This document shows positions 5,415 through 26,845 of a stretch of 64,000 nucleotides of DNA, in pieces. The notes below the pieces were generated by a model. That model saw only the letters and a program-made list of their open reading frames with translations, had not been told where the DNA came from and did not search any database. Source of the DNA: an uncultured bacterium (lineage in GTDB: Bacteria; UBP7; UBA6624); assembly GCA_964012435.1 (NCBI GenBank), contig CAXGSM010000002.1, positions 634 to 64,633 of the forward strand. Reading direction: 5' to 3'. A program made the position numbers and the translations under genes. Each line of letters opens with the position of its first letter. The stretch's first letter is position 1.

Positions 5415-6947
5415 ATGGGCAAAAAGTTCAAACATATTGAAAAAAAAATTACCCTGGTGGGAACAATAAGGAAATACTCTAGACCTTTTTTCATAACAAC
5501 AGGTTTAATCTTTGTAGTTTCTATTTTTTGGAATTATGGTACAACATTTACAAAATCAACAAAAATTAGCGATGAAGCACTTCAGCAACAACTTGAAATT
5601 GCTCCATCTGTAGTTGACGGAGAGGCAATTGATGAAAACTCGGTAAGCCGACTTGTTGGCTTAAAAGTCCAACAATGGAGAGTACAAAACCCATCCTCAG
5701 CTCCAGGGATCATGGACATGATTCAATTCAGGGTAGAAAGCATGGATGAGATAATTGAAAGAAGGGTTTTCTTGAGCGAAGCAAAAATTCAAAAAATAAA
5801 AATCAAAGATAGCTCTATTTCAGAAAGAAAAGAAAGAGATCTGGAAAGCTTTTTCATAAACCAAGATGAAGAAGGTAATTTTTTTGAAAAATTTAAAAGC
5901 AGAAAAGAAGCAAAAAAGGCATTTTTCAACAGAATCTCCTCTTTAGGAATGTCTGAAACAGATTATCTAAATCTAATCGAAGAGGATTTAATGATTGAAG
6001 AAATTGAAGTTTCAATATCTATGACAGCACAATCTGATTCAGAAACATACAAAAAAGATATTGAAAACGTGATCCAAAACATGATAGACGAAGGCAAAAA
6101 CCTTACTGAGATATCACTTGAATTAAACAATGGAAGACCTGGCTTGAGGTCAATAGCGAGTAGATGGATAACAAGAGCTGAAGCAGAGTCCGCAATGATA
6201 CCTTTTGAAGAACTAAATCAGCAAAAAATAATTAAATATCAACTAGGCAATGAAACATTTTTTTCTATAGGTCTTGAATACAGAGAAGCTTCTGGTCAAG
6301 AATATGAAGAATTTGTCAAAACGCAAAAAAGCAAAAACAACAAAGAGTTAAACCTTGAGCAAATTGCTGTTGAAACAGATTATTCAAAAAATTATGAAGC
6401 CGTTAGGGTCCAAAGCATACAAGTTTCAGCACCATTAAATGAACTTTACAACGACATAAAAAACAAAATAACCTCTTCTCATGAAATTGTCGTAAATGAC
6501 AAAGTTTATTTAATCTACAGAGATTTGCTATTAGGTAATTACGATTCATCTGGCTCCAAAAGTTTAGAAAGCTCGCAAGAAGAAAATGCCAGGAATGAAT
6601 ATCTTGCATTATGCGCATGGAGCTTTTTGCTAAAAAGCAAAATGTCAGAATCAGAAAAAGACGAATCCTCTCTGCTTCAGTCTCAATCATGCTCATCAGA
6701 CCTTTTGAAACTAGCTCCTTTTGACCCTTACAACATCCTGCTGTTAGCAAGAATAGAGCTTGAAACCGGAAACAAGACAAAAGCGATTAAACTGATTGAA
6801 GAAGCAAAAGAGTTTCGTGGACAAAACTTAAACATATCCTTTCAAATATCTTCCCTTTTTAGAGAAGCTGGAAATGAGGAGATGGCTCTTTTGGAAGATG
6901 AAGAAAGAAATCAAATGATAGGGAACTTAAACAACAAACTATTTTGA
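5415..6947 (+). CDS. hypothetical membrane-anchored periplasmic protein (possibly PpiD/SurA-like chaperone, TPR-like C-terminus)
   Basis: N-terminal single TM (FFITTGLIFVVSIFW), then a long acidic/helical region. The C-terminus is helical-repeat-like. The functional guess rests only on architecture. Confidence 0.45.
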   Translation: MGKKFKHIEKKITLVGTIRKYSRPFFITTGLIFVVSIFWNYGTTFTKSTKISDEALQQQLEIAPSVVDGEAIDENSVSRLVGLKVQQWRVQNPSSAPGIMDMIQFRVESMDEIIERRVFLSEAKIQKIKIKDSSISERKERDLESFFINQDEEGNFFEKFKSRKEAKKAFFNRISSLGMSETDYLNLIEEDLMIEEIEVSISMTAQSDSETYKKDIENVIQNMIDEGKNLTEISLELNNGRPGLRSIASRWITRAEAESAMIPFEELNQQKIIKYQLGNETFFSIGLEYREASGQEYEEFVKTQKSKNNKELNLEQIAVETDYSKNYEAVRVQSIQVSAPLNELYNDIKNKITSSHEIVVNDKVYLIYRDLLLGNYDSSGSKSLESSQEENARNEYLALCAWSFLLKSKMSESEKDESSLLQSQSCSSDLLKLAPFDPYNILLLARIELETGNKTKAIKLIEEAKEFRGQNLNISFQISSLFREAGNEEMALLEDEERNQMIGNLNNKLF

Positions 6948-8227
6948 ACAAGAAATATCACATACGAACATTCGGTTGTCAAATGAATACAGCTGATTCA
7001 GATTCAATTGCAGGAATGCTTGATAGTTTTGGACTTGAAAAGTCAACAGAAGAAAAAGCAGATATAGTTCTTTATAACACTTGTGCAGTTAGAGAAAAAG
7101 CTGAACAAAGAATGAGGTCTGAGCTTGGTAGCGTCAGGATACGAAAAGAAAAAAATCCTGAAGTAAAAATAGGCATACTTGGCTGTGCTGCTGAAAGCTT
7201 GAAGGAAAAATTAGAAAAAGAAGCATGGATTGATATTGTGCAAGATGGTAAAGATCTTGAAAAAATGAAAGAAGCAGTGATGCAAATTCTTCCAGACGAA
7301 TATGAACCTACTCAGGATTCTTTTGGCCTACATAGAGGTGGTGAAAATTCAGGAATGATACCTGTCATAAGGGGATGCTCCTACATGTGCTCTTATTGCA
7401 TTGTTCCTAGAACAAGAGGTCTACAAAGATCTATACCTTTAGAGGAGATACTAAAAGATGTAGAGCTGTCTATCGAGAAAGGCTCAAAAGAAATATATCT
7501 ATTAGGTCAAAACTTCCTTTCGTATGGTAGAGATCTCTCAAAAAAAATATCTCCGGAGGAAATGATATCGACTGTGCATGACTCATTTCCCGAACTTAAA
7601 AGAATAAGATTCCTAACAAGTCATCCTCACGACCTAACAAAGAATTTTCTACAAACAATGACCTCGCTTCCACGTGTTGCAAAATATCTTCATTTACCAT
7701 TTCAATCTGGAAGTGATACTGTTCTTAAAGCCATGAGGAGAATAACAACAAGGAGAACTGTTATTGAAAAGTCACAATGGGTAAGAGATATATGGAAGGA
7801 TGCAACCCTCTCTACGGATATCATTGTTGGCTTTCCAACTGAAACTAAAAAAGATCACGAAGAAACAATCTCTTTGTTGGAGGAGGTTCAGTATGATTTT
7901 GCATACTCTTTCCTCTACTCGCCAAGACCTCAAACTAAAGCATTTCCATTAGGCGATCCAATACCTCATAAAGAAAAAGTTGAAAGGCTTTCAGAAGTGA
8001 CAAAAGTTTTAAACTCAATTTGGTTTGAAAAAAATAAAAAATATCTAGGTAAAACAGTTGAAGTTTTAGCAGAAAGCAAAGAAGGAAAATCTAAAAACAG
8101 ATGGACTGGCAGGTCGGAAGGCTTTCATCTTGTTCACTTTGATTCAGACACAAATCCAATAGGCAAGTATGTCAAAGTAAAAATTACAAAAACAGGATCA
8201 ACATTTCTTGGAGGAGAGCTTGTTTAA
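6944..8227 (+). CDS. miaB: tRNA-2-methylthio-N6-dimethylallyladenosine synthase (radical SAM methylthiotransferase)
   Basis: UPF0004 motif IRTFGCQMNTADSD, radical SAM CxxxCxxC (GCSYMCSYCIVP), C-terminal TRAM-like domain. The TTG start is forced because the next ATG lies inside the FGCQMN motif. Confidence 0.9.
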   Translation: MNKKYHIRTFGCQMNTADSDSIAGMLDSFGLEKSTEEKADIVLYNTCAVREKAEQRMRSELGSVRIRKEKNPEVKIGILGCAAESLKEKLEKEAWIDIVQDGKDLEKMKEAVMQILPDEYEPTQDSFGLHRGGENSGMIPVIRGCSYMCSYCIVPRTRGLQRSIPLEEILKDVELSIEKGSKEIYLLGQNFLSYGRDLSKKISPEEMISTVHDSFPELKRIRFLTSHPHDLTKNFLQTMTSLPRVAKYLHLPFQSGSDTVLKAMRRITTRRTVIEKSQWVRDIWKDATLSTDIIVGFPTETKKDHEETISLLEEVQYDFAYSFLYSPRPQTKAFPLGDPIPHKEKVERLSEVTKVLNSIWFEKNKKYLGKTVEVLAESKEGKSKNRWTGRSEGFHLVHFDSDTNPIGKYVKVKITKTGSTFLGGELV

Positions 8228-9557
8228 AATTTTTATTCTCTTGCTGCTTCCAATTCAGCTACAAGAGGCGCTTCAGCTACACCCTTCCGTTATCACTGCA
8301 AAAAAAAATGTTGAATTATCAGAGCTAAATTTCGCACAATCCGAATATCAAACATTTTCCCCCCTACTCTCAACAAGTGGATCTCATAACAATAATGAAA
8401 GTAGTGTCAATTTTGACACAAGCAAATCAAGCAATTTGAATGCTTCAATTTCATGGCTTACAAGAAGAGGATATTCACTTAGTCTTTCATTACGTAATGG
8501 GGAATCCATATACAACAGTTCAATAGGTGGAATAACTGACAACTATTCACTTTCCTCAGGCTTTTCACTTAGCTATCCTCTTTTTTCTGAAAAAAGAAAA
8601 TCAAGATTAAGCAGCACAGACATATCAGCATTCAACACCTTGAAAACCCATATAGACTACCAAGCGACCTTGAACCAATCAGCATATGATGTGATTTCAA
8701 GATTTTGGGATTGTTTAATTCTTGAAGAAAACCTAACCTTGACAAAACTGTCATTAGAAGAAAGCCAACAGCAGCAATCTCAAATAGAAGCAAGAATAAA
8801 AACTGGCACACTTGCTGAAAGCGAAATCTATAGTTACATCAACAGGACACTTCAACAAGAAGCTTCAGTGATTGATGCAGAAATAAGGCTACAGGAATGC
8901 AATGAGCAAGCAAACCTTCTTTTTGGTAGAGAAGTCCCCAGGGAATGGTTTGAATTGGTCAAATCAATTGATTTTCAAGAAGATACTTCATATCCTGAAA
9001 AAGCATACAAGACAACAGATGTTGAAAAAAGCGAGATTGATCTAAGCATTGGACAAATCAGTCTGCAAAATTCATACTCTCAAGATATGGCTGATTTTGA
9101 TCTTTCCATGAGTTATGGTTTGAATGCTAACTCAACAACTCAGACAAGCTTCAGCGATCTGGAAAATCCGAACTGGAGTGTTGGGCTAACCTGGTCAAAA
9201 AGACTGGGAAACAAAAATTACAACCAAAAAGAATCAGAGATAAATTTTGAGAATCTCAATCTCTTTCTGGAGAGAACAATGGATAATGCACTTCTTACAG
9301 AAAGAAGCCTGGTTAACCAGATCATCTCTATAGAAAAGCTCGTTACAGCTTCTGAATCAGGAGTGCAAGCTGCACAAAAAGCTTACGAAGGAACAAAAGC
9401 AAGATGGGAAGTTGGACTGACAACAAACCTTGAACTATTCACCTTGGAAAATTCATTAATGTCTGCAAAGATGTCTTTACTCACAACGAAAAAAAACCTC
9501 TTACTGGCAAAAGCAAATCTTGCAAGATTTAGAGGAAATATTATTTCAAAAAATTAG
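8208..9557 (+). CDS. TolC-family outer membrane efflux protein
   Basis: About 450 aa with a hydrophobic N-terminus. It has the two-fold repeated helical/coiled organisation typical of the OEP family. No adjacent pump genes. Confidence 0.65.
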   Translation: MEESLFKIFILLLLPIQLQEALQLHPSVITAKKNVELSELNFAQSEYQTFSPLLSTSGSHNNNESSVNFDTSKSSNLNASISWLTRRGYSLSLSLRNGESIYNSSIGGITDNYSLSSGFSLSYPLFSEKRKSRLSSTDISAFNTLKTHIDYQATLNQSAYDVISRFWDCLILEENLTLTKLSLEESQQQQSQIEARIKTGTLAESEIYSYINRTLQQEASVIDAEIRLQECNEQANLLFGREVPREWFELVKSIDFQEDTSYPEKAYKTTDVEKSEIDLSIGQISLQNSYSQDMADFDLSMSYGLNANSTTQTSFSDLENPNWSVGLTWSKRLGNKNYNQKESEINFENLNLFLERTMDNALLTERSLVNQIISIEKLVTASESGVQAAQKAYEGTKARWEVGLTTNLELFTLENSLMSAKMSLLTTKKNLLLAKANLARFRGNIISKN

Positions 9558-9828
9558 CTGGCAAATTTTTCTCGCCATAAATCCATCTGCCTCTCACAAG
9601 AACTTCAGAGATATAGGAATTTGAAACCCTGGTTGCATCAATTAAGAAAACATGCTTACTTTCAAAAATGCCTTTTTCGAATTGTTTTGTGAAATTGCTC
9701 AAGTCCTTAAATTCAATCCATTGATCTGAAAAAAGAATTACAGACAAAAGAGAGTCATTTTCCTCTATTAGATAAGCTGCTTCAACACAAGACCCATCAA
9801 AGATTCCTTTCGCAATTTTTTCAATCAT
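9541..9828 (-). CDS. hypothetical small protein
   Basis: 95-aa ORF with an ATGA overlap onto the mgtE stop (translationally coupled). No family recognised. Confidence 0.45.
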   Translation of the reverse strand: MIEKIAKGIFDGSCVEAAYLIEENDSLLSVILFSDQWIEFKDLSNFTKQFEKGIFESKHVFLIDATRVSNSYISEVLVRGRWIYGEKNLPANFLK

Positions 9829-11180
9829 AATAATCCAATAATCAACGATGTGTAAATAGTTACTCCGGTTATATCACAAATAGTTGAAATCAATGGTGCA
9901 CTGGCGACAGCAGGATCAATTTTCTTCAAAGACATCAATAGTGGTATTGCTGTTCCCACTATGCTGCCGGTCATTATTGCGGCCACAAGACTTAAGCCAA
10001 CCACTTTGAGTTGGTCAAATTGCAAAGACTGGCCAGAAAAAAAATAAGAAACAATAAAAACAACCAAAGCACAACACAAAGCCATCGCAAGACCAACCTT
10101 TAATTGTTTTAAAACAAACCTCCAAGGCTTTTCAGCTGAAAGTCTGTTTGTGGCAAGGGCTCGAACAACTATTACCGAAGATTGATTTCCAATTGCACCG
10201 CCTAAAGCCATTATCAATGGTAAAAACGCAAGAAGCAAAACAAAATTCTCAATTGAATGACCTTTTGTTTCTAGGATCCTGCCGGTTAAAAAGCTTCCAA
10301 TCAAAGTTAAAAGAAGCCATGACATCCTTCTTAAAGCAATCTTCCAAGTCGTTTGGTTGACAGTTAACTCTTCCTCAGAAAGGCCTGCTAGCAAAAATAC
10401 ATCTTCAGTTGCTTCTTCTTGAACTATATCAACAATATCATCTGGGCTTAAGGCTCCGCACAGCACGCCCTCTTCGTCAGTCACGGGAACCATTAAAAGA
10501 CCATACTGCTCAAACACCTTAATCGCTTCTTCTTTATCTGACGATATTGAGATTGAGATAACCTCATCTATAAAAACATCAGAAATAGGAAACCCTTCAT
10601 CTGAATCACTAAGCTTTTTGAGGGTCACAAAACCTAAGAGCTTTCTATCATCATCTACAACATAAACAATATTTGAAAAATCATCATCAAAGCTGACAAG
10701 CTTGTTCAGTGCGTCTTTTACATTGTCTTTTATGTTTACAAATGCAGGCAGAATATCCATCCTTCCGGCTGCAGTATCTTCATCAAAATTTAAAAGGTCA
10801 CTTATTAAGTGATTTTGTGTCCTAAGCTTTAATGTTATCTTTTCTTTTATCCTGTCTGGAAGAAATCGGATAACAGCAGTAGCTATATCGACTGGCAACT
10901 TGCGTAAAATTTTCATAGAATGATCAGTTTTTAATCTCGAAATCTGCTGCGCTAACACATCCTCATCCACTTTTTCAAGTATCAATTGTGGTCTAGGTAT
11001 TTTTAAGACCAAATCAAACAAATTTTGTCTATCTTCTTTTTCAAGAAGCGGAAAAACGCTAGCAATTTCACCAGGGTGATATTTAAGAATAAATTTCTTT
11101 TTTCTTTGAATGCTTTTGTAGTTTAATATCTTCTCTAAAGCTGCTAAAAGAATTGAATTACGTAGTTTGCGTGACATCAA
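9825..11180 (-). CDS. mgtE: magnesium transporter MgtE
   Basis: N-terminal MgtE-N helical domain, a CBS pair (VISISISSDKEEAIKVFEQYGLLMVPVTDEEG), and a C-terminal 5-TM domain with GNQSSVIVVRALA. Confidence 0.9.
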   Translation of the reverse strand: MMSRKLRNSILLAALEKILNYKSIQRKKKFILKYHPGEIASVFPLLEKEDRQNLFDLVLKIPRPQLILEKVDEDVLAQQISRLKTDHSMKILRKLPVDIATAVIRFLPDRIKEKITLKLRTQNHLISDLLNFDEDTAAGRMDILPAFVNIKDNVKDALNKLVSFDDDFSNIVYVVDDDRKLLGFVTLKKLSDSDEGFPISDVFIDEVISISISSDKEEAIKVFEQYGLLMVPVTDEEGVLCGALSPDDIVDIVQEEATEDVFLLAGLSEEELTVNQTTWKIALRRMSWLLLTLIGSFLTGRILETKGHSIENFVLLLAFLPLIMALGGAIGNQSSVIVVRALATNRLSAEKPWRFVLKQLKVGLAMALCCALVVFIVSYFFSGQSLQFDQLKVVGLSLVAAIMTGSIVGTAIPLLMSLKKIDPAVASAPLISTICDITGVTIYTSLIIGLL

Positions 11181-11308
11181 TCAAGCTCCATTTAAATTGG
11201 GAAAAAAATAAAATTTTCTAGAAAACAATTTAATTTTGTGCATTTTTATATGATTTTAGTTTTAAAAAAATACATTTACCCATTTTTAATACATAAAATG
11301 TAATTATT

Positions 11309-11989
11309 ATGATTAACCCAATTTCTTTATTTTTAAATAACTTCTTAACATCAGGAGGCCTAGGTGGATCAATTATCCTTCTAGTAATAATTCTCCTTTC
11401 GATCTATGGCCTTGCAATAGTTTTTGAAAGAAGAAAAACATTTGCAAGAATACCAAAAGGTGGCGGCAAAGATGTTGTAAGGCGAATAATTAGCTCTTTG
11501 GAGATAGACGATATAGCAGAAGCGAAAGTACAAACATCATCTAGAAAAGACGTTTATTCCAGAATGCTGAAAACTGTTCTTGAATCGAGAGAATGCAGTA
11601 AGGCTATATTTGAAGAAAATATTTCAAAAACATTTCTCAAAATCTCATCCGATCTTGAAAGAAACTTAGCAAGCCTTGCAACCATTGTTGAATTTTCGCC
11701 ACTTATAGGTCTGCTTGGAACAATTGTGGGTTTAATGAAGATTTTTGGAAGCATTTCTGAAGGTGGCTTGGGCCATCATGAAGAACTTGCAGGAGGTATC
11801 TCAACTGCTCTCATAACAACAGCTGCAGGTCTTATAGTTGCAATATTCTTTGGGATAATACTTAGATCTTATAAATCAAAAATTGAAGACATTTCAATGA
11901 ATATTGAAAATTGTGTTTCAGACGTGGTTTCACATCCATCATTTTTTCAAAAAAACATAAATGACGACATGGAGAGTTCGAATAATTGA
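11309..11989 (+). CDS. MotA/TolQ/ExbB-family proton channel protein
   Basis: 226 aa with 3 TM. LATIVEFSPLIGLLGTIVGLMKIFGSI and GGISTALITTAAGLIVAI are typical of ExbB/TolQ. Confidence 0.85.
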   Translation: MINPISLFLNNFLTSGGLGGSIILLVIILLSIYGLAIVFERRKTFARIPKGGGKDVVRRIISSLEIDDIAEAKVQTSSRKDVYSRMLKTVLESRECSKAIFEENISKTFLKISSDLERNLASLATIVEFSPLIGLLGTIVGLMKIFGSISEGGLGHHEELAGGISTALITTAAGLIVAIFFGIILRSYKSKIEDISMNIENCVSDVVSHPSFFQKNINDDMESSNN

Positions 11990-12396
11990 AAACAAGATTT
12001 AAAAACAAGTCAGAAAACACAGAGTTAAAAATAGCCTGGACTCCTCTTATTGACATGGTTTTCATACTGCTTCTTTTTTTCGCCGTCACAACAACATGGG
12101 CTTCAAAAGAAGCCGGAATGAATATGGAACTGCCAAATGCTGGCTCAGGAACACAACAAAACAATAACCAAATAATTTATGTAGATGAATTAGGAAGAAT
12201 ATACATAAACAATCAAGACACACCGCTTTCAATTGCTGATTTCCTAAATGAACTAAACCGTTTTGAAAAAGATCAACCATGGGAAATAAGAGCTAACAAA
12301 GATGTTCCTTATGAGAAAGTTATTATTGTGCTTGACAACCTAAGAAAAGAAAAATACATGAATGTAATACTTGCGGTTGAACCTAATAGAAATTGA
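11986..12396 (+). CDS. ExbD/TolR-family biopolymer transport protein
   Basis: 136 aa. The TM segment TPLIDMVFILLLFFAV carries the conserved Asp. TTGA overlap with the upstream stop. The TTG start is forced because the next ATG is inside the TM. Confidence 0.85.
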   Translation: MKTRFKNKSENTELKIAWTPLIDMVFILLLFFAVTTTWASKEAGMNMELPNAGSGTQQNNNQIIYVDELGRIYINNQDTPLSIADFLNELNRFEKDQPWEIRANKDVPYEKVIIVLDNLRKEKYMNVILAVEPNRN

Positions 12397-13451
12397 AAAA
12401 AATAACTGAAATAGAAAAAAATATAATTCCAGAATCATTAAGAACACCTCTTAGGATTTCTCTTTTTTTGCATGTAATATTGATTTCTTTTCTTGCCTTC
12501 ATAAAATTCCCCTTGCCTGAACCACCACCGTTAATTCTAAAAATATCAGAAGAACAAAATGCAGAAAGTGAAAAAGAAAAAGAAAATAATGATCCTGAAA
12601 AAGAACAGGAAGATTCAAAAGGTCATGGTTCAAGAGAGCTGAATAAAGAAAGCAAAAAAACAACAAATCAAAAACCAGTACAAGGTCAAATATATGTAGT
12701 TAAATCTGGTGACAGCGTTGGAAAAATTGCTTCAGAAGCTGGAGTCAGTGTTCAAGATATGAAAAAATTCAATCCATGTGATCTTGGCGAAAACCCATCT
12801 CTAATAATAAAACCAGGAGATAGGCTGATGATACCGGGTGCCGGAAGGAAAGAGCCTGGTCCATGCAAAACAAAACAAAAAGAAATACCTTCAGAAGAAA
12901 TAGAAATAACTGAAGAAGATCTTATGGAAACAATTTTAAAAACAACAGAAGTTACAGTTGAAGAGGTGGTTGAAGAGGCGGTTGAAGAGGCGGTTGAAGA
13001 GGTGGTTGAAATAGACCCTTGCGCAGCTGACCAACCTTATGATGAAAGCTGTTGGCCACTAGATAAGGAAAGGCCAAAACCTCTTGTTACAAAATTAGCT
13101 GGATATGAAAATGTTGGTGGATGGTTTAAACAACCAATAAAAGACAATAATGGCAAGCTGATGGGAAGAGCTGAATTTGGAACCTCTTCATCGCCATTAA
13201 ACATTCCGAAAAATCTTACTGATGGAGACGGCCTTGCTAAAGGCACATCTGTAGTAGTTGAAATGGAATTTTCAGAAAATGGAGAAGCCAAATCGGAGCC
13301 AAAAATAATTTTGACAAGCGGATACGAATCCCTTGACAAAAGAGCAATAGCCTGGATGAAGAGAACAACATTTAAAGACAGCTTCAATAGACATCAGATG
13401 GAAAATGGTGGCATCTTGAGGATTCAATTTTATTTTCCAGGTGCATCATGA
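12393..13451 (+). CDS. TonB/TolA-like energy-transducer protein carrying a LysM domain
   Basis: The N-terminal TM has an S-x3-H-x6-L pattern (SLFLHVILISFL). A PEPPP and acidic linker follows. LysM (YVVKSGDSVGKIASEAGVSVQDMKKFNP...IKPGDRLMIP) is at about 12690-12833. The C-terminus is TonB_C-like (GTSVVVEMEFSENGEAKSEPKIILTSGYESLDKRAIAWMKR). Confidence 0.7.
   Translation: MKKITEIEKNIIPESLRTPLRISLFLHVILISFLAFIKFPLPEPPPLILKISEEQNAESEKEKENNDPEKEQEDSKGHGSRELNKESKKTTNQKPVQGQIYVVKSGDSVGKIASEAGVSVQDMKKFNPCDLGENPSLIIKPGDRLMIPGAGRKEPGPCKTKQKEIPSEEIEITEEDLMETILKTTEVTVEEVVEEAVEEAVEEVVEIDPCAADQPYDESCWPLDKERPKPLVTKLAGYENVGGWFKQPIKDNNGKLMGRAEFGTSSSPLNIPKNLTDGDGLAKGTSVVVEMEFSENGEAKSEPKIILTSGYESLDKRAIAWMKRTTFKDSFNRHQMENGGILRIQFYFPGAS
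12957..13010 (+). repeat. in-frame 12-nt tandem repeat (4.5 units, GTTGAAGAGGYG) encoding (V-E-E-A/V)n
   Basis: Read directly: gttgaagaggtg gttgaagaggcg gttgaagaggcg gttgaagaggtg gttgaa. Lies in the linker of the TonB/TolA-like protein. Confidence 0.9.
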
Positions 13452-15331
13452 TTTTAGCTTTTTTCTTAAGCCTGATTCTCAATCCAATCTTCATCGAGAA
13501 CCAATTTATAAAAATAAGAGTAAATCCAGGACCTCAGGAAGAAGCCAGATTTGCACTTGACACCACGCAAGGCAACCCAGAAGAGCCTAACGATAATGAA
13601 AAAAAATTAATCTATGGCGCAAAAATGCCCTGGTCTAGTTTTGCAATAATAAAAATTGATGAAAAAACATTCATTTTTGGGGGAGCTTCAAGAAACGATA
13701 GGAAAAATTTTTTTACGAACCTCCAAACAGGAAACAAAATATCTGATCCCTACGTTGAAGACGAAAAAATAATTTCAACCTGGGAGTTTTCTGGAGTAGA
13801 AATAAGCCAAATTCTGTCTTTTGAAAAAGGTTATTCTACAAATCTCAAAGATGCAATGGGTATTACCTATATTGCAAAATCAACAGATCAAAAAGAACAT
13901 AAGGTTGCAATCACATTGATACTTGACACAATGCTTGGAGAAAATGATGGAGCACCGTTAAGAGCAGAAGGAGCCCAAGGTCTTATCGAGTCAGAGATAT
14001 GTTTTGAAAAATCTGAATTACCAGAATTTTGGCAAGCTTGGGATACTGAAGACCAAGCAACAATCAAAGCTGAAGGTAGATTAAAAATAAAAGATAAACA
14101 AAATCCAAAAAGATTAGTTTTGGCAAATTGGGGAAAGCTTGCAAAAACAAATTGGAATATAGAGTGCCAACCAGGTGCAAGCTTTGTGAGGGATGGAGAT
14201 TTTGAAGACGAAAAAGACACTGCTGTTGCTATAGTTTGGGATTCAATTACCGTTGACAGCAAACCTCAAGAGTTTCACACTACATATGGAATAGCAGATG
14301 CTCCAGCTCCTCCAGAGTGCAAACCTTTATCTGCATACATAAGCGGTAAGCCTTTTGAGATAGCAAGCAATGAAGAAAAATCTTTTTTTGGAAATTGGAC
14401 AACTGATAAAGATTACCCTATACAGCCAAAAGAAGCAACCCTGACAGTTTACTCTAACGATGGATTGAAAATAATAAATCCAGAAAAATCAATCGATCTT
14501 GAAGAATATCCGAACGGCTATCATTCATTCAAAATTTTCAACCCTGGATTAAATAAAAATAATGCCACCTATACTTTAAAAATAGAGTCACCTGAAGGCT
14601 TCGAGTGTGCAACAACAAACAAGGTAAAAATATCTAAACCTGCTAATTTAGAAATGAAGCTGATGCAGAAACCATCCATATCATCAATTTCTGGAATAAG
14701 GCATGACCCTACAAAATTTTATGCAAATTTAACAATTGAAAACTCTGGTGAAAGTAATTCTGAGAAAGGAAGCGTGGAGATCAGAACAAATCAAATATTA
14801 TCGATTTCATCAGGTTTAAAAATTGATTTTGAAACCATCCCCCCAAGAGGTAAAAAAACTTTTTCATGGCTTGTTTCGATTTCACCTGAATCATCAGGAT
14901 TGGCTTCCTTGAACTGGATTTTAAACTATAAAAATGAAGAAAAAATATCTAAAAAAATTGAATTCAACATACCTTCTTTAGATCAACACATGAGAATAAA
15001 ATCAATACAAAGAAACTTCTCTAACTCTTTAGTAACAGCGGTAAAAATGAAACCATTTTCAACATTCTCAGGCAAATGGGAGCTTCCCGGAAAATGTTTA
15101 CTTGCCGGAGATGGAGGTATAGAAAAATATGGATACACTGTTGAAACAAAATGCTATGACAACATTGTTGAGGTTTTAATTTCCGGCAATGAGGCTGAAT
15201 TACCGCCTTTGGTTGGTCTTTTTAGGGTCTTTCATTCTGGAAACCATGATAAAAGCTGGAATCGAATCGAAAATTGTATTAACATTAATAAGACAAACGA
15301 GTGTCAAACACTAGAGGAGATATGGGAATGA
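13448..15331 (+). CDS. hypothetical exported protein, 627 aa (C-terminal CARDB/Ig-like segment possible)
   Basis: ATGA overlap with the upstream gene and a hydrophobic N-terminus. ANLTIENSGESNSEKGSVEI resembles a CARDB-type Ig-fold strand pattern. No TolB-like repeat recognised. Confidence 0.55.
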   Translation: MILAFFLSLILNPIFIENQFIKIRVNPGPQEEARFALDTTQGNPEEPNDNEKKLIYGAKMPWSSFAIIKIDEKTFIFGGASRNDRKNFFTNLQTGNKISDPYVEDEKIISTWEFSGVEISQILSFEKGYSTNLKDAMGITYIAKSTDQKEHKVAITLILDTMLGENDGAPLRAEGAQGLIESEICFEKSELPEFWQAWDTEDQATIKAEGRLKIKDKQNPKRLVLANWGKLAKTNWNIECQPGASFVRDGDFEDEKDTAVAIVWDSITVDSKPQEFHTTYGIADAPAPPECKPLSAYISGKPFEIASNEEKSFFGNWTTDKDYPIQPKEATLTVYSNDGLKIINPEKSIDLEEYPNGYHSFKIFNPGLNKNNATYTLKIESPEGFECATTNKVKISKPANLEMKLMQKPSISSISGIRHDPTKFYANLTIENSGESNSEKGSVEIRTNQILSISSGLKIDFETIPPRGKKTFSWLVSISPESSGLASLNWILNYKNEEKISKKIEFNIPSLDQHMRIKSIQRNFSNSLVTAVKMKPFSTFSGKWELPGKCLLAGDGGIEKYGYTVETKCYDNIVEVLISGNEAELPPLVGLFRVFHSGNHDKSWNRIENCININKTNECQTLEEIWE

Positions 15332-15966
15332 AAAAAATAACCTTACTATTTATATTATCAATAATGAACATTGCAAATCTTAAAGGCTTAGATATAAGAG
15401 ATTTATCTGAAGATCACCCTGCATACAATACTGTGCTATACCTTATCGAAGAAGGTTTCTTAAGCACTTTTGATGGTGATGAATTCAGAGGTGGACAATC
15501 TATAACTAGGCTTGAAGTGGCAATGCTCGTTGACAAGATGCTCAAGCATGTCTCTTCTGGTGAGAAGAATCCAACAGCTCAGGAAACTGATGCTATTCGC
15601 TTGCTGGCAGAAGAATTTAAAACAAACATCATAAGAATTGATGATAAACTTTATGCCTTTGAGCAGAGAATCCAACTTTTAGAAAGCGAGCAATCTAAAG
15701 TTGTTGATGATTTTCTAGCAATCAAAATTGAAGTTGATCAGAAATTGACTCAATTTGAAAATGACTTGAACCTCTTACGACAAAGTCTAGAAAATCGATC
15801 CATACAGCAAGAAACAAAGTTGATGCTTGACGAAATGAGCCTTAGGCTGACTGATCTTGAAACAAGAATGTCAGATTATGATAAAAAAAATACAGATGGG
15901 ACAACAAAGGTTGAATCACAATATGTATTTTGGCTTTTCGGATTGCTTGCTTTAGCGTCTAGCTAA
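15328..15966 (+). CDS. SLH-domain / coiled-coil / C-terminal-anchor protein (Omp-alpha-like tether candidate)
   Basis: Signal-like MKKITLLFILSIMNIANL. SLH motif DLSEDHPAYNTVLYLIEEGFLSTFDGDEFRGGQSITRLEVAMLVDKML. About 100 aa of heptad-rich sequence follow. The C-terminal hydrophobic end is YVFWLFGLLALASS. The ATG at 15328 has GAGGAG 8 nt upstream and an ATGA overlap with the upstream stop. Confidence 0.7.
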   Translation: MKKITLLFILSIMNIANLKGLDIRDLSEDHPAYNTVLYLIEEGFLSTFDGDEFRGGQSITRLEVAMLVDKMLKHVSSGEKNPTAQETDAIRLLAEEFKTNIIRIDDKLYAFEQRIQLLESEQSKVVDDFLAIKIEVDQKLTQFENDLNLLRQSLENRSIQQETKLMLDEMSLRLTDLETRMSDYDKKNTDGTTKVESQYVFWLFGLLALASS

Positions 15967-15972: not shown

Positions 15973-16878
15973 TTGAAAGTTCTAGTTACTGGTGGTGCTG
16001 GATTTATTGGCCACACAATATCGAAAAAATACATCGAAAAAGGTTACAAGGTAACAATACTAGATAATCTTTCAACTGGGAAAAAAGAAAATATACCAAA
16101 TGATGCTGATTTTATATTTGGCGACATATGCGATTCAAAAATTATAAAAAAATTAGGTTCATTTGACCTTTTAAGTCATCATGCAGCCCAAACAAGTGTA
16201 ACTTTCTCCGTTAAAAACCCTTTAATTGATGCAAGAAATAATATATTCGGAACAATATCTTTACTTGAAAACATGAAGGGCAAAATAAATCAAATTATAT
16301 TTGCAAGCACAGGTGGAGCAATATATGGCAACATCAAAAAAACAGCAACAGAAAAACATAAAACAAATCCAGAATCACCATATGCATTAAATAAAATGAC
16401 TGGTGAGAAAATTGTTACTATGTGGGCCAAACAAAACAAAACCAAAGCAACAATACTTAGGTATTCAAATGTTTACGGGCTAGGTCAAGATCCTCACGGA
16501 GAATCTGGAGTTATAGCAATATGGATGAAAAATATACTTGAAAAAAAACCATGTGTCATATATGGAGATGGAAATTCAGTAAGAGACTATGTCTATGTAG
16601 AAGATGTTGCAAATGCAAATCTTTTATCGATTGGCAAAGAAGGGGTTTTCAATATTGGCACAGGCATTGGAACATCAACAAATACATTATTCAAAATGCT
16701 TCGACCTAAAGAAAAGGCGATTTACAAAAAAGCAAGAGAGGGAGAGGTGGAAAGAAGTGTTTTAGATGCATCAAAAGCAAAAAAAATCTTTTATTGGGAG
16801 TCCAAAACTAGAATACAAGATGGTATACGTTTAACGTTTTCAAAAGAAACAAAAAGGAGAAAGAATAACAATGAGTAA
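15973..16878 (+). CDS. NAD-dependent epimerase/dehydratase (UDP-sugar 4-epimerase-like)
   Basis: KVLVTGGAGFIGH Rossmann motif and YxxxK (YALNK). 301 aa. TTG start. Confidence 0.8.
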   Translation: MKVLVTGGAGFIGHTISKKYIEKGYKVTILDNLSTGKKENIPNDADFIFGDICDSKIIKKLGSFDLLSHHAAQTSVTFSVKNPLIDARNNIFGTISLLENMKGKINQIIFASTGGAIYGNIKKTATEKHKTNPESPYALNKMTGEKIVTMWAKQNKTKATILRYSNVYGLGQDPHGESGVIAIWMKNILEKKPCVIYGDGNSVRDYVYVEDVANANLLSIGKEGVFNIGTGIGTSTNTLFKMLRPKEKAIYKKAREGEVERSVLDASKAKKIFYWESKTRIQDGIRLTFSKETKRRKNNNE

Positions 16879-17821
16879 AAAAGTTGGTTTTGTTGGAGCG
16901 GGTTTTGTTGGAGCGGAGGCTGCGAGACAGGTAATGTCTGAAGGAATTGCAAATGTGGCACTAGTTGACATAGTTGGAGACATGGCGAAAGGAAAAGCTT
17001 TAGACTTGACAGAAGCTGCTCCAATACTTAAAACGGCTAAAGGTGCAATTGGCGGCAGTGACTATAAGCTACTACAGGGTTCGGATGTAGTTGTAGTAAC
17101 GGCGGGAATCCCAAGAAAACCGGGAATGAGCAGAGATGATCTTCTAAAAACCAATATACTCATAACAAAAGAAGTATGCAACGGTATTAGAAAATATGCT
17201 CCGGGAAGCATTGTGATAATGGTTACAAATCCATTAGATGCAATAGTTTATGTTGCACAAAAATTTCTAGAAGGAACTTGCAAAGTTATTGGAATGGCTG
17301 GAGCGTTAGACAGTGCAAGATTTAGAACTTTTCTTTCAATGGAGACAGGAGTTTCTTCGGATGACATACAAGCAATGGTTCTTGGAAGCCATGGCGATGC
17401 AATGGTTCCACTTGTTAGTTCAGCATCAATATCAGGAATACCTGCTAAAGAGCTAATAAAAGAAAAACGCTTAGATGAAATTATTGAAAGAACCCAAAAA
17501 GGTGGAGGAGAGATTGTTGCATTGCTAAAAACAGGTAGTGCATACTATGCTCCGGGAATATCTGTTGCAAGCATGGTGAAATCAATCATATTAGATGAAA
17601 ACAAAATAATCCCAACATGCACACAGCTCAATGGAGAATATGGGGAGTCTGGAGTATTTATGGGAGTTCCTGCAATTCTTGGAACAAACGGAGTTAAAAA
17701 AATAATAGAAGTCTCTCTTTCCCAAAAAGAAAAAAAACTTTGGGAGAATAGCCTAAATCACGTTAGAGAGCTTATGGATGTTTCAGATTCAATAATCAAA
17801 AATGAAAAAATACAATTTTGA
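16871..17821 (+). CDS. mdh: malate dehydrogenase (LDH-like MDH family)
   Basis: KVGFVGAGFVGAEAA dinucleotide fold, GIPRKPGMSRDDLL substrate loop with Arg, and the catalytic-His region GSHGD. 316 aa. Confidence 0.88.
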   Translation: MSKKVGFVGAGFVGAEAARQVMSEGIANVALVDIVGDMAKGKALDLTEAAPILKTAKGAIGGSDYKLLQGSDVVVVTAGIPRKPGMSRDDLLKTNILITKEVCNGIRKYAPGSIVIMVTNPLDAIVYVAQKFLEGTCKVIGMAGALDSARFRTFLSMETGVSSDDIQAMVLGSHGDAMVPLVSSASISGIPAKELIKEKRLDEIIERTQKGGGEIVALLKTGSAYYAPGISVASMVKSIILDENKIIPTCTQLNGEYGESGVFMGVPAILGTNGVKKIIEVSLSQKEKKLWENSLNHVRELMDVSDSIIKNEKIQF

Positions 17822-18626
17822 CAACCTTTCATTAACACATTTCTCATCCGGAACACTCTCTTTAGATGGTGGTGCAATGTTTGGAGTTGTTCCAAAAAAT
17901 CTATGGAGCAAAGTGTACCCATGCGATAAACAAAACAGAATAAAACTTGGGATGAATCTCTTATTGATACAAAATCGTAATCAAAATATTTTGATAGATA
18001 CTGGTTGCCTCGGTATAAACAACGAAAAACTCAAAAAAATATATGACATAAAAAACAAAAAACCATTTCAAAAACTTGGTATATCTGAAGATGAAATTGA
18101 TCATGTTGTGTTAACTCATCTTCATTTTGATCATGCTGGCGGAGCAACAATATTCAATGGTGAAAAATGGATTCCAAGATTTAAAAATGCAACATATTGG
18201 GTTGACAAAACCGAATGGAAAAGAGCAACAAACCCAAACGAAAGGGAAAAGGCTTCATACTACCCTGAAACCTTCATGCCTCTTGCAGAGGAAGGGAAAC
18301 TTCAATTGATCTCTGGTGATAAAGAGATTATTGAAAATATATTTTTCATAAATGCTCCGGGGCATACTCCTGGTCATAGAATCATCAAAATCACAAGCGG
18401 ACAAAAAGAAATGTATTATCTTGCTGACCTTGTTCCAACCGCAAAACACTTACCAATTCCATGGATAATGTCCTATGACTTAGAACCATTAAGAACACTT
18501 GAAACAAGAAAAAAAATTTATCCTAAGTTTGTAAACAAAAATGTAAGATTGTTTTTTGAACATGATGAAGAGCCAACTTCAGGGTTTGTTAAAGAAGAAG
18601 ATAAAAAAATAACATTTTACAAATAA
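17802..18626 (+). CDS. MBL-fold metallo-hydrolase
   Basis: HxHxDH motif (LTHLHFDHAGG) and a later GHTPGH. 274 aa. Confidence 0.8.
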   Translation: MKKYNFDNLSLTHFSSGTLSLDGGAMFGVVPKNLWSKVYPCDKQNRIKLGMNLLLIQNRNQNILIDTGCLGINNEKLKKIYDIKNKKPFQKLGISEDEIDHVVLTHLHFDHAGGATIFNGEKWIPRFKNATYWVDKTEWKRATNPNEREKASYYPETFMPLAEEGKLQLISGDKEIIENIFFINAPGHTPGHRIIKITSGQKEMYYLADLVPTAKHLPIPWIMSYDLEPLRTLETRKKIYPKFVNKNVRLFFEHDEEPTSGFVKEEDKKITFYK

Positions 18627-21832: not shown

Positions 21833-22235
21833 GCCAAAGCCAAAGCCCCCTCTCCTTATCAAAAAATCTAACTTTTTGATTTAAAGATTGCATAACCATA
21901 AACTCACAAACAAACACTTTGCAACCTTTTAAAACATGCCCTCCGTAAGTTTGACCTTTTTTATCAGATAAGCTTATATGAAAATGAGGAAAAATATCAT
22001 CTTTAAAATTTGAATCAGATTTTAATGAAATATTCCCAGATAAAGAAACTATTTCTAAATCTTCACTAATAGAAATTTCCTCATATTTCTCTTCTTTTTG
22101 GTTGTACCAAGCTATATTTGCCTGCTTTAAAGCACCTATGCCAAAGATCCAACATGATTGAATTTTTCTATTTTTTGCAAAATCAAGCAAGGATTCAAGA
22201 AGATCACATCCATTTTTCAAAGAATACATTTTCAT
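21825..22235 (-). CDS. PPC (DUF296) domain protein
   Basis: GIGALKQANIAWYN...LEIVSLSGNIS...PHFHISLSDKKGQTYGGHVLKGCKVFVCEFMV fits the PPC/DUF296 pattern. 136 aa. Confidence 0.7.
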   Translation of the reverse strand: MKMYSLKNGCDLLESLLDFAKNRKIQSCWIFGIGALKQANIAWYNQKEEKYEEISISEDLEIVSLSGNISLKSDSNFKDDIFPHFHISLSDKKGQTYGGHVLKGCKVFVCEFMVMQSLNQKVRFFDKERGLWLWHD

Positions 22236-23176: not shown

Positions 23177-23260
23177 TTGCTACTTACTATTTTAGACAGG
23201 CTTGATCAACTTTTATATATTTTACCTAACTAAAAATGGAATAAAAAACACTCTAAATAC

Positions 23261-23296
23261 TTGACAGAGGTAATAATGACGTTATATACTAGTGGG
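23261..23296 (+). promoter_or_regulatory. candidate sigma70-type promoter of the mraZ/dcw operon, plus one GTGGG box
   Basis: TTGACA at 23261-23266. TATATA (23283-23288) or TATACT (23285-23290) lies at 16-18 nt spacing. GTGGG at 23292-23296 resembles the MraZ-box core, but only one copy is seen. Confidence 0.4.
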
Positions 23297-23302
23297 TGAA
23301 AT

Positions 23303-26842: not shown

Positions 26843-26845
26843 CAA

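What the first reader, a model, noticed from the sequence alone, without database searches (positions are those of the whole stretch)
11309..15966. Tol/TonB-type motor operon with non-canonical partners: a LysM-TonB_C protein, a 627-aa orphan and an SLH/coiled-coil tether
- Five genes are chained by 4-nt start/stop overlaps: TTGA at 11986 and 12393, ATGA at 13448 and 15328. This argues for one co-translated module.
- Genes 1-3 are recognisable. They are ExbB/TolQ, ExbD/TolR with the TM Asp, and a TonB/TolA-like protein with an S-x3-H-x6-L anchor and a TonB_C-like end.
- The layout mirrors tolQ-tolR-tolA-tolB-pal.
- Position 4 is a 627-aa exported protein in which I see no TolB-like propeller repeats.
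- Position 5 carries an SLH domain instead of an OmpA-like Pal domain.
- I do not know of a described envelope-energising system with this partner set.
Basis: partly seen in the sequence, partly recalled or inferred. Interest (0 to 1): 0.72.

Follow-up and report, generated by a model that had tools for sequence, protein, structure and literature searches.

The report
TonB-type motor with cell-wall tether partners
This is a real five-gene operon, conserved in several double-membraned bacterial lineages that lack Tol-Pal, which couples a proton-driven ExbB/ExbD/TonB motor to a secreted sugar-binding-like/cohesin protein and a rod-shaped cell-wall tether instead of to nutrient receptors, and I found no paper that describes it.

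Summary
Five + strand genes (11309-15966) are chained by TTGA/ATGA overlaps. They encode ExbB/TolQ-like, ExbD/TolR-like and TonB-like (with a LysM insert) proteins, a 627-aa exported protein and an SLH/coiled-coil protein.

One correction: the 627-aa protein is not an orphan. Its N-terminal domain has no Pfam model but has about 3,700 cluster representatives. It models confidently as a galactose-mutarotase-like beta-supersandwich, two Ig/CARDB domains and a type-II-like cohesin. It is not a TolB propeller.

Gene 5 has the architecture of Thermotoga Omp-alpha: signal peptide, SLH, coiled coil and C-terminal helix.

The order ExbB-ExbD-TonB-cohesin protein-tether recurs in nearly every related locus that has enough flank. 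These loci come from Halanaerobiales, Limnochordia, Armatimonadota, Hebobacteria and the window's unnamed marine lineage. Halothermothrix orenii carries the module, and its 2009 genome paper noted a Ton system with no TonB-dependent receptors.

Best reading: a proton-motive-force-driven module that acts on an outer membrane/cell wall tether, working like Tol-Pal but not homologous to it at positions 4 and 5. The mechanism is inferred, not shown. I found no published description. It is a new variant of a known kind, and interest is high.

The parts
11181..11308 (+). AT-rich 128-bp intergenic region upstream of gene 1, next to the divergent mgtE; probable promoter region
   Evidence: The promoter-like matches are not above shuffled expectation, so this is position-based inference only.
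11309..11989 (+). Gene 1: ExbB/TolQ/MotA-family proton-channel subunit (226 aa)
   Evidence: Pfam PF01618, 2.9e-27. NCBIfam TolQ scores 81.9 bits and ExbB 51.7 bits, both far below their equivalog cut-offs. Orthologues were found in 69 of 80 related loci.
11986..12396 (+). Gene 2: ExbD/TolR-family subunit (136 aa) with a transmembrane Asp (D23, codon 12052-12054)
   Evidence: Pfam PF02472, 2e-25. NCBIfam TolR scores 57.8 bits and ExbD 46.9 bits. There is a TTGA overlap with gene 1. Orthologues were found in 70 of 80 loci.
12393..13451 (+). Gene 3: TonB-type transducer (352 aa) with a LysM insert
   Evidence: The orthologous slot holds a TonB-like protein in 71 loci. Pfam TonB_C is detected in relatives.
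12450..12503 (+). N-terminal membrane anchor of the TonB-like protein with S23-x3-H27-x6-L34
   Evidence: Read from the sequence. S-x3-H is present in 67 of 68 slot-3 proteins.
12693..12836 (+). LysM (peptidoglycan-binding) domain inserted in the TonB linker; specific to the window's lineage
   Evidence: Pfam PF01476, 9e-8, residues 101-148. It is found only in L001-L005 and L088.
13155..13448 (+). Divergent TonB_C-like C-terminal domain
   Evidence: Pfam PF03544, 3e-3, below the gathering score. It aligns with the clear TonB_C domains of orthologous slot proteins.
13448..15331 (+). Gene 4: exported 627-aa all-beta protein; family of about 620-720 aa with Sec signal peptides and no lipobox
   Evidence: AlphaFold2 mean pLDDT is 86.3.
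13481..14317 (+). Conserved N-terminal domain (aa 12-290): galactose-mutarotase-like beta-supersandwich with invariant DTxLGxNDGAP, W217 and D246; not in Pfam
   Evidence: AlphaFold2 pLDDT 90.1, pTM 0.91. Foldseek TMq 0.5-0.62 to the Cgs, GH94, GH116 and YidC-P1 domains. There are 3,706 representatives at E<=1e-3.
14327..14971 (+). Two Ig-like (CARDB/NPCBM_assoc-type) domains (aa 294-395 and 401-508)
   Evidence: AlphaFold2 secondary structure. Pfam CARDB or NPCBM_assoc is found in 13-14 of 25 family members.
14987..15325 (+). C-terminal cohesin-like domain (aa 514-626)
   Evidence: The family profile matches type-II-like cohesins (ScaB 3l8q at 1.2e-12, SdbA 2bm3). Pfam Cohesin is found in 12 of 25 members. 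The window protein itself has no Pfam hit.
15328..15966 (+). Gene 5: Omp-alpha-type tether (212 aa): signal peptide, SLH, coiled coil, C-terminal hydrophobic helix
   Evidence: The Omp-alpha architecture is described in PMC9388160.
15397..15522 (+). SLH domain (aa 24-65)
   Evidence: Pfam PF00395, 2.2e-5. The best solved relatives are Veillonella OmpM SLH/stalk entries 8bz2, 8bys and 8bym.
15580..15897 (+). Coiled-coil stalk (aa 85-190)
   Evidence: 0 Pro/Gly in 106 residues. The heptad score is 0.51 against 0.28 +/- 0.05 in 500 shuffles, and none of the shuffles reached it.
15919..15963 (+). C-terminal hydrophobic anchor (QYVFWLFGLLALASS) preceded by Lys residues
   Evidence: Read from the sequence. 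61 of 64 complete position-5 proteins end in such a helix, with 2.9 K/R in the 10 aa before it and 0.34 after it.

Best explanation
The five genes form one module. An inner-membrane proton-driven ExbB/ExbD-type stator and a TonB-type transducer are dedicated to two co-encoded envelope proteins rather than to TonB-dependent receptors.

- Partner A (gene 4) is a soluble exported protein. It has an N-terminal beta-supersandwich of a fold that elsewhere accompanies glycan-handling enzymes, two Ig spacers and a C-terminal cohesin, which is a protein-docking domain.
- Partner B (gene 5) is an Omp-alpha-type rod. Its SLH domain holds the peptidoglycan or secondary cell-wall polymer. [quoted passage not shown]

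Proposed mechanism: the TonB C-terminal domain engages partner A and/or B. Proton-motive-force-driven pulling then attaches, releases or repositions the wall-to-outer-membrane tether. This is the same logic as TolQRA acting on TolB-Pal, in lineages that have no Tol-Pal.

What is shown:
- the gene identities;
- the domain architectures;
- the translational coupling;
- the conservation of the five-gene order across lineages;
- the absence of a receptor gene in the loci.

What is inferred:
- which proteins touch each other;
- which membrane holds the C-terminal helix;
- the physiological role (envelope tethering or outer-membrane integrity).
For: - Translational coupling: four 4-nt overlaps join the genes.
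- Synteny: the order ExbB-ExbD-TonB-family protein-coiled-coil anchor, on the same strand, holds in 61 of 63 (5' side) and 64 of 65 (3' side) testable loci. The loci come from Limnochordia, Halanaerobiales, Armatimonadota, Hebobacteria and the window's lineage.
- These five are the only genes conserved across all the loci.
- Pfam-annotated contexts agree in Orenia marismortui, H. orenii, 'bacterium JZ-2024 1', a 1-Mb MAG contig and a 35%-identity relative of the window.
- H. orenii carries exactly this module. Its genome paper found ExbB/ExbD/TonB together but no outer-membrane receptors and suggested 'a different function' (PMC2626281).
- A 2025 survey detected Ton systems (tonB plus TBDT) among diderm Firmicutes only in Negativicutes, and Tol-Pal only in Gracilicutes (PMC12204202).
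- Pal and Tol are absent from Terrabacteria, which use SLH-based tethers.
- Omp-alpha, with the same architecture as gene 5, is an accepted outer membrane-wall spacer.
- The motor subunits score higher against TolQ/TolR models than against ExbB/ExbD models.
- The window's lineage adds a second wall-binding module, LysM, to TonB.
Against: - No protein-protein contact was tested, and no experiment exists.
- The window protein's TonB_C match is below Pfam's threshold.
- The strict proteobacterial D-box pattern is absent from slot-3 proteins: 2 of 67, the same as in a control segment.
- Armatimonadota and Hebobacteria versions of gene 5 lack SLH. Wall binding by partner B is therefore not universal.
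- The coiled coil varies from about 100 to 850 aa and does not correlate with TonB length (rho -0.17, p 0.23). This is awkward for a simple periplasm-spanning ruler.
- A C-terminal helix after a Sec signal would by default stay in the inner membrane.
- The supersandwich fold also fits a nutrient or glycan-binding role.
- The rest of the window organism's genome could not be searched for TBDTs or Tol-Pal.
- Armatimonadota are reported to have TonB.
Confidence: 0.5

Rival explanations
1. Ordinary TonB-dependent nutrient (glycan) uptake. Gene 4 would be a periplasmic or surface glycan-binding accessory protein, and TonB would energise an outer-membrane transporter encoded elsewhere. That transporter could be a divergent barrel or OmpM. 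Gene 5 would be a bystander tether.
For: - The N-domain fold is shared with the non-catalytic N-domains of glycoside phosphorylases and hydrolases, and it has invariant acidic residues.
- The TonB_C domain is typical of uptake systems.
- TonB has been reported in Armatimonadetes.
- OmpM doubles as an uptake channel in Veillonella (PMC10628300).
Against: - No Plug/TonB_dep_Rec gene lies in the window or in the flanks with called-gene Pfam annotation. In all 80 loci only the five module genes are conserved.
- No TBDT was found in H. orenii or in Halanaerobiales and Limnochordia generally.
- The model does not explain why gene 5 is strictly retained next to the motor across phyla.
Confidence: 0.2
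2. A surface-layer, sheath or cell-surface display scaffold. The cohesin protein and the SLH/coiled-coil protein would build or anchor an outer proteinaceous layer, like the cellulosome anchors SdbA/OlpB or the Thermotoga toga. The motor would help export or assemble it.
For: - The family profile matches type-II cohesins of anchoring scaffoldins.
- SLH domains anchor S-layers.
- Databases call the family 'cellulosome anchor protein'.
- Omp-alpha is a toga component.
- A remote homologue of the N-domain occurs in an archaeal context.
Against: - No dockerin-bearing partner or cellulosomal enzyme lies in any locus.
- The hosts are LPS diderms, so an SLH domain bound to the wall is periplasmic. 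The window encodes LpxK, a Wzm/Wzt-type ABC transporter and a TolC-like OEP.
- I know of no precedent for TonB driving S-layer assembly.
Confidence: 0.12
3. Stator-anchoring strut. Gene 5's C-terminal helix stays in the inner membrane beside ExbB/ExbD, and its SLH/coiled coil fixes the motor to the wall, as the peptidoglycan-binding domain of MotB does. Gene 4 would be the sole force target.
For: - A signal peptide plus a C-terminal helix gives inner-membrane anchoring by default.
- Flagellar-type stators need wall anchoring (established knowledge of MotB).
- The window's lineage adds LysM to TonB.
Against: - The basic residues lie on the periplasmic side of the helix: 2.9 K/R before it against 0.34 after it. 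That is the reverse of what the positive-inside rule predicts for such an anchor.
- The same architecture in Thermotoga is outer-membrane anchored.
- Armatimonadota versions have no wall-binding domain.
Confidence: 0.1
4. Anti-phage defence of the Zorya type (a MotA/B-like motor plus effectors), or a chance juxtaposition of unrelated genes.
For: Weak ZorA matches to gene 1 (2e-5).
Against: - No ZorB, ZorC or ZorD match was found, and genes 2-5 have no meaningful PADLOC hit.
- The module sits in a fixed housekeeping neighbourhood that is conserved at 35% protein identity (SurA-MiaB-OEP-MgtE).
- It is present throughout cultured Halanaerobiales.
- Overlapping stop/start codons and conservation in 60+ loci exclude chance.
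Confidence: 0.03

Closest known systems
Tol-Pal system (TolQ-TolR-TolA-TolB-Pal) of Gracilicutes
   Same: - A five-gene operon in the same order of roles: proton channel, Asp-bearing partner, membrane-anchored transducer with S-x3-H, exported soluble protein, wall-binding envelope tether.
- The motor subunits score best against TolQ/TolR models.
- It is found in lineages that lack Tol-Pal.
   Different: - Position 4 is a supersandwich-Ig-cohesin protein, not a TolB N-domain plus beta-propeller.
- Position 5 is an SLH/coiled-coil/helix protein, not an OmpA-like lipoprotein.
- The transducer carries a TonB_C-type domain.
- There is no CpoB gene.
- NCBIfam equivalog cut-offs for TolQ and TolR are not reached.
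Ton system (ExbB-ExbD-TonB with TonB-dependent transporters)
   Same: - MotA_ExbB and ExbD domains.
- A TonB anchor motif, an acidic or proline-rich linker and TonB_C.
   Different: - No TBDT lies in any locus, and none is reported in H. orenii.
[quoted passage not shown]
- The strict D-box pattern is absent.
Omp-alpha / Omp-beta bipartite tether of Thermotogae, and the OmpM/SlpA superfamily
   Same: - Gene 5 has the Omp-alpha plan: N-terminal SLH, coiled-coil stalk and C-terminal helix instead of a barrel.
- Its SLH/stalk is most similar to the OmpM stalk.
- It is encoded next to an all-beta exported protein.
   Different: - The neighbouring all-beta protein is a soluble multidomain protein, not a beta-barrel like TM0476 (417 aa).
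- The papers read on Thermotoga toga genes never mention ExbB or TonB.
- Sequence homology to T. maritima Omp-alpha itself was not tested.
Other motor-coupled envelope machines: Agl-Glt gliding complex and the vWA 'force transducers' (Williams-Jones et al. 2025)
   Same: TolQR/ExbBD-type motors are wired to non-receptor partners, which shows that such rewiring occurs.
   Different: - The transducer C-terminal domains differ (vWA, or Glt proteins).
- The partners differ.
- The taxa differ (Proteobacteria, PVC, Bacteroidetes).
Type-II cohesin anchoring scaffoldins (SdbA, ScaB)
   Same: A cohesin fold at the C-terminus of the family and a functional association with an SLH protein.
   Different: - Cohesin and SLH are on separate polypeptides.
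- There is no dockerin partner.
- The hosts are diderm.
- The label 'cellulosome anchor protein' is a domain-based misnomer.

Membership tests
Ton system | ExbB/TolQ/MotA-family proton-channel subunit | tested here: met
   Pfam PF01618, 2.9e-27 and 95 bits against a cut-off of 22.9.
Ton system | ExbD/TolR-family subunit with a conserved transmembrane Asp | tested here: met
   Pfam PF02472, 2e-25. D23 lies in 'TPLIDMVFILLLFF'.
Ton system | TonB: N-terminal anchor with S-x3-H, extended linker, TonB_C domain | tested here: met
   The anchor motif is present (S23/H27/L34), and S-x3-H occurs in 67 of 68 slot-3 proteins. The window protein's own TonB_C match is sub-threshold at 18.4 bits against 24.6. 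It aligns to orthologues that pass.
Ton system | D-box (hydrophobic/hydrophilic pattern flanked by Pro) after the anchor, as defined in Proteobacteria (PMC10907165) | tested here: not met
   The strict pattern occurs in 2 of 67 proteins, equal to the control segment. A beta-prone stretch (PPPLILKISEE) does occupy that position.
Ton system | Cognate TonB-dependent outer-membrane transporter with a TonB box | tested here: not met
   There is none in the 64-kb window or in annotated flanks of relatives. None was found in the H. orenii genome according to PMC2626281. The rest of the window's genome could not be searched.
Tol-Pal system | TolQ and TolR equivalogs | tested here: not met
   TolQ and TolR are the best-scoring NCBIfam models (81.9 and 57.8 bits) but lie far below their cut-offs of 221 and 127.
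Tol-Pal system | TolB: N-terminal domain plus six-bladed beta-propeller | tested here: not met
   A confident AlphaFold2 model shows a supersandwich, two Ig domains and a cohesin. Foldseek gives no propeller match.
Tol-Pal system | Pal: outer-membrane lipoprotein with an OmpA-like peptidoglycan-binding domain | tested here: not met
   Gene 5 has SLH, no OmpA domain and no lipobox.
Tol-Pal system | Septal recruitment and a role in outer-membrane constriction | not testable with these tools
   This needs microscopy and genetics.
Omp-alpha-type tether (Thermotogae) | N-terminal SLH domain after a signal peptide | tested here: met
   Pfam SLH, 2.2e-5. 55 of 64 complete position-5 proteins have it.
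Omp-alpha-type tether (Thermotogae) | Long coiled-coil stalk | tested here: met
   Residues 85-190 have no Pro or Gly. The heptad score exceeds all 500 shuffles. Stalk length in relatives ranges from about 100 to 850 aa.
Omp-alpha-type tether (Thermotogae) | C-terminal transmembrane helix instead of a beta-barrel | tested here: met
   61 of 64 complete proteins have it. The window's hydrophobic stretch is short, about 14 residues.
Omp-alpha-type tether (Thermotogae) | Outer-membrane location and a partner beta-barrel (Omp-beta) encoded alongside | tested here: not met
   No barrel gene is adjacent. The neighbour is the soluble 627-aa protein. Membrane location is not testable here.
Cohesin-dockerin anchoring scaffoldins | Cohesin domain | tested here: met
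   The family profile matches ScaB (3l8q) at 1.2e-12. Pfam Cohesin is found in 12 of 25 members. The window member is assigned only by alignment and model.
Cohesin-dockerin anchoring scaffoldins | Dockerin-bearing partner proteins | tested here: not met
   No dockerin hit in the module proteins or in the annotated neighbours of the loci with called-gene Pfam annotation. The only gene families conserved across the 80 loci are the five module genes.
Zorya defence system | ZorA with a long tail plus ZorB and ZorC/D effectors | tested here: not met
   Only weak ZorA-model hits to the MotA/ExbB core, and none for the other genes.

The most novel reading that the evidence does not exclude
The module is the Terrabacterial counterpart of Tol-Pal. 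It would be an ancient, receptor-independent use of the ExbB/ExbD/TonB motor to control SLH/coiled-coil tethering of the outer membrane to the cell wall, and it may reflect what the Ton motor did before TonB-dependent transporters existed. In Halanaerobiales and Limnochordia it may be the only Ton-type system.
Probability: 0.3. Interest if true: 0.9.

Novelty: new variant of a known kind. Interest (0 to 1): 0.75.

Why it matters
Diderm Terrabacteria include diderm Firmicutes, Armatimonadota and candidate phyla. They lack Tol-Pal, Lpp and Pal, and they hold their outer membrane with SLH-based tethers. How they energise processes at the outer membrane or coordinate tethering is open.

A conserved operon that hard-wires a proton-driven TonB motor to an Omp-alpha-like tether and a cohesin-bearing adaptor gives that question a concrete, testable candidate.

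It also explains a 2009 puzzle: H. orenii has ExbB/ExbD/TonB but no receptors.

It bears on the evolution of Ton and Tol. ExbBD has been proposed to predate TBDTs (cited in PMC12204202).

Finally, it defines a large exported domain family that Pfam does not model, with about 3,700 cluster representatives at 50% identity.

Tried and rejected
- **Whole-chain Foldseek of the 627-aa model.** It returned only multi-Ig proteins (integrin alpha legs, alpha-2-macroglobulins) with TM below 0.25 and was uninformative. Re-modelling the N-domain alone solved this.
- **Genes 4 and 5 as equivalents of Thermotoga OmpB/OmpA1.** Rejected for gene 4, because TM0476 is a 417-aa barrel. Kept for gene 5 as an architectural match only.
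- **TonB linker length against coiled-coil length.** No correlation was found (rho -0.17, p 0.23).
- **Strict D-box pattern.** Not found above the control level.
- **Promoter and terminator scans.** Hits were at or below shuffled expectation.
- **tRNA and Rfam scans of the window.** Nothing was found.
- **PADLOC.** Only weak ZorA-core hits.
- **Literature.** Seven full-text searches found no description of the module. Engel et al. 1992 could not be read. Subscription-only reviews, such as the 2025 Nat Rev Microbiol review on Terrabacteria, were not searchable, so prior mention cannot be excluded.

Full report
**1. Observation**

The window holds five + strand ORFs exactly as described: 11309-11989, 11986-12396, 12393-13451, 13448-15331 and 15328-15966. 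The junctions read TTGA, TTGA, ATGA and ATGA. Gene 5 has alternative in-frame starts at 15322 and 15301, and a GGAG sits 9 nt before 15328.

A 128-bp AT-rich gap separates gene 1 from the divergent mgtE. An epimerase gene follows gene 5 after 6 nt, and no + strand terminator-like site occurs before 19000. Transcription may therefore continue into genes that are not conserved partners.

Pfam gives the following:
- gene 1: MotA_ExbB, 2.9e-27;
- gene 2: ExbD, 2e-25;
- gene 3: LysM, 9e-8, plus a sub-threshold TonB_C at 3e-3;
- gene 4: nothing;
- gene 5: SLH, 2.2e-5.

The ExbD Asp (D23) and the TonB anchor motif S23-x3-H27-x6-L34 are visible in the sequence.

**2. The '627-aa orphan' is a large family**

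A first search found 69 relatives of about 620-720 aa. Many come from Halanaerobiales and are labelled 'cohesin domain-containing protein', 'cellulosome anchor protein' or 'COG1361 family'.

An alignment shows a strongly conserved N-terminal region of about 280 residues. Its invariant positions include DTxLGxNDGAP, W217 and D246. The C-terminal half is more variable. All members have Sec signal peptides and none has a lipobox.

A profile of the N-domain alone finds 3,706 cluster representatives at E<=1e-3 and 1,195 at E<=1e-30 among 1.84 billion. In nearly all of the 150 best hits the domain sits at the N-terminus of the protein. A remote member lies in an archaeal context without any motor genes.

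**3. Structure of gene 4's product**

AlphaFold2 with the family alignment gives mean pLDDT 86.3. The protein is all-beta with four domains: residues 12-290, 294-395, 401-508 and 514-626.

Whole-chain Foldseek was uninformative. The N-domain modelled alone reaches pLDDT 90.1 and pTM 0.91. It matches galactose-mutarotase-like beta-supersandwiches with TMq 0.5-0.62:
- the N-domains of cyclic glucan synthase;
- GH94 phosphorylases;
- GH116 and GH65 enzymes;
- the periplasmic P1 domain of YidC.

The family profile matches type-II-like cohesins at its C-terminus (ScaB 3l8q at 1.2e-12, and SdbA). Among 25 members, Pfam finds NPCBM_assoc in 14, CARDB in 13 and Cohesin in 12.

The protein is therefore not a TolB-type propeller. 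No single characterised family covers it.

**4. Gene 5**

The SLH region is most similar to the SLH/stalk of Veillonella OmpM (8bz2, 8bys, 8bym) and to the N-terminus of cyanobacterial SomB-type porins.

Residues 85-190 contain no Pro or Gly. Their heptad score of 0.51 exceeds all 500 shuffles, which average 0.28 +/- 0.05. The protein ends in a short hydrophobic segment.

Across relatives, 61 of 64 complete position-5 proteins end in a hydrophobic helix and 55 carry SLH. The stalk ranges from about 100 to 850 aa. Armatimonadota and Hebobacteria versions lack SLH.

Basic residues lie before the helix (2.9 K/R in 10 aa) rather than after it (0.34). This plan of SLH, coiled coil and C-terminal helix is that of Thermotoga Omp-alpha, an outer membrane-wall spacer (PMC9388160; PMC10160955).

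**5. Synteny**

A scan of one genome per GTDB species found 354 genomes that encode a relative of gene 4. The 80 best loci were fetched. They come from these groups:
- Bacillota MAGs, including Limnochordia/Limnochordales, Halanaerobiales and Halobacteroidaceae, Orenia metallireducens and 'Darwinibacter';
- Armatimonadota;
- Candidatus Hebobacteria;
- unnamed marine relatives of the window.

Iterated searches with the five window proteins against six-frame ORFs found ExbB in 69 loci, ExbD in 70 and the position-5 protein in 65. The order and strand were always the same. The gap between ExbD and gene 4 always holds one gene. It is a classical TonB with an S-x3-H anchor, a Pro/Glu-rich linker and a 'YPK..A...G.EG.V' C-domain.

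All-against-all clustering shows that these five are the only genes conserved across the loci. Counting only loci with enough flank, 61 of 63 have the three upstream genes. The other two have motor hits in broken ORFs. 64 of 65 have a position-5 ORF.

Independent gene calls with Pfam annotation show the same five genes in:
- Orenia marismortui;
- a 1-Mb MAG contig;
- 'bacterium JZ-2024 1';
- a 35%-identity relative of the window that also shares the upstream SurA-MiaB-OEP-MgtE block and the LysM-TonB fusion;
- Halothermothrix orenii.

The family is present across cultured Halanaerobiales. The LysM insert occurs only in the window's lineage.

**6. Host and context**

The identical gene 4 protein is on record in GCA_002713445.1 (a 'bacterium' MAG) and on a 70-kb ENA contig. 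The AlaRS of the window has no named relative above about 40% identity, so the lineage is deep and unnamed.

The window encodes LpxK, a Wzm/Wzt-type ABC transporter, a SurA-like chaperone and a TolC-like OEP, so the host is an LPS diderm. It encodes no TBDT, TolB or Pal.

**7. Literature**

- The H. orenii genome paper reported ExbB, ExbD and a putative TonB together but no receptors, and it suggested another function (PMC2626281). One search shows that this locus is the module.
- Williams-Jones et al. 2025 found Tol-Pal only in Gracilicutes. Among diderm Firmicutes they detected Ton systems only in Negativicutes. Their new vWA transducers are a different system (PMC12204202).
- Witwinowski et al. 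place Pal/Tol in Gracilicutes and SLH-based OmpM or Omp-alpha/beta tethers in Terrabacteria.
- Seven full-text searches found no description of this five-gene module.

**8. Interpretation**

Shown:
- the module is conserved and translationally coupled;
- the motor and transducer belong to the Ton/Tol kind;
- positions 4 and 5 are not TolB and Pal, and neither is a receptor.

Inferred:
- TonB's C-terminal domain acts on the cohesin-bearing protein and/or the Omp-alpha-type tether;
- this modulates wall-to-outer-membrane attachment, as Tol-Pal does.

The main alternative is glycan uptake through an unlinked channel. Further alternatives are assembly of a surface layer and a stator-anchoring strut. 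I reject defence or chance adjacency.

Weak points:
- no interaction data exist;
- SLH is missing in two phyla;
- the stalk length is extremely variable and does not correlate with TonB length;
- no strict D-box is present;
- the membrane that holds the C-terminal helix is uncertain;
- the rest of the window's genome could not be searched.

**9. Verdict**

It works like a Tol-Pal system but fails the membership tests for TolB and Pal. It is Ton-type at the motor and transducer but lacks the defining receptor.

I rate it a new variant of a known kind. Interest is high, because it offers a concrete candidate for how Terrabacterial diderms couple proton-motive force to their outer-membrane tethers.

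Noticed in passing
window 5415-11180; L088 1-5693: The gene block upstream of the module is SurA-like, MiaB, TolC-like OEP, a 95-aa ORF on the minus strand, then MgtE on the minus strand. The same block is conserved in a relative whose gene 4 protein is only 35% identical, so the module sits in a stable envelope and housekeeping neighbourhood.
   Followed up: partly
window 15973-18626: An NAD-dependent epimerase, a malate/lactate dehydrogenase-like gene and an MBL-fold gene follow gene 5. The gaps are 6 nt or overlapping, and no terminator-like site lies between them. They may be co-transcribed, but they are not conserved partners in other lineages.
   Followed up: partly
window 36651-37745: A 364-aa beta-propeller protein (YncE/lactonase-like Pfam hits) overlaps the end of lgt. 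It has no TolB_N or PD40 signature, so it is not evidence for a Tol-Pal system.
   Followed up: no
window 54225-57035 and 59544-61700: Two large ORFs, of 936 aa (+ strand) and 718 aa (- strand), have no Pfam match at 1e-5. They were not examined further.
   Followed up: no
window 20900-35715: A cell-wall and division cluster reads mraZ, murE, murF, mraY, murD, murC, murB, a short 332-aa protein with only a weak Tubulin/FtsZ match (5.8e-11), a YggS-like gene, uppP and ftsK. mraW and lpxK lie on the opposite strand just upstream. No ftsW, murG, ftsA or ftsQ was recognised among the ORFs scanned.
   Followed up: no
L009, L010, L014, L024, L025 and similar loci (about -5000 to -2800 and +5200 to +6900 relative to gene 4): In Limnochordia-like loci the module lies between spoIIAA-spoIIAB-sigF, a PHP-domain gene and a GNAT gene upstream, and cheW/fliM/fliN-like genes downstream. 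In Halanaerobiales a PHP gene precedes the module and a Hydrolase_2 (SleB-like cell-wall hydrolase) gene follows it (L081, L089).
   Followed up: partly
position-5 proteins of L001-L080 (C-termini): The C-terminal helix is preceded by 2-4 Lys/Arg and followed by 0-3 residues, which are rarely charged. This is opposite to the positive-inside rule for an exported protein with an inner-membrane stop-transfer anchor. Many of the helices are Gly/Ala-rich.
   Followed up: partly
L084 7001-9196: A remote homologue of the N-terminal supersandwich domain (731 aa) lies in an archaeal-type context, next to eRF1 and tRNA synthetase beta genes, with no motor genes. The domain is therefore older or more mobile than the module.
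   Followed up: no
L017, L034, L059 position-5 genes: Some Clostridia-labelled MAGs have position-5 proteins of 731-946 aa. These are almost entirely coiled coil and, if extended, would be far longer than any periplasm.
   Followed up: no
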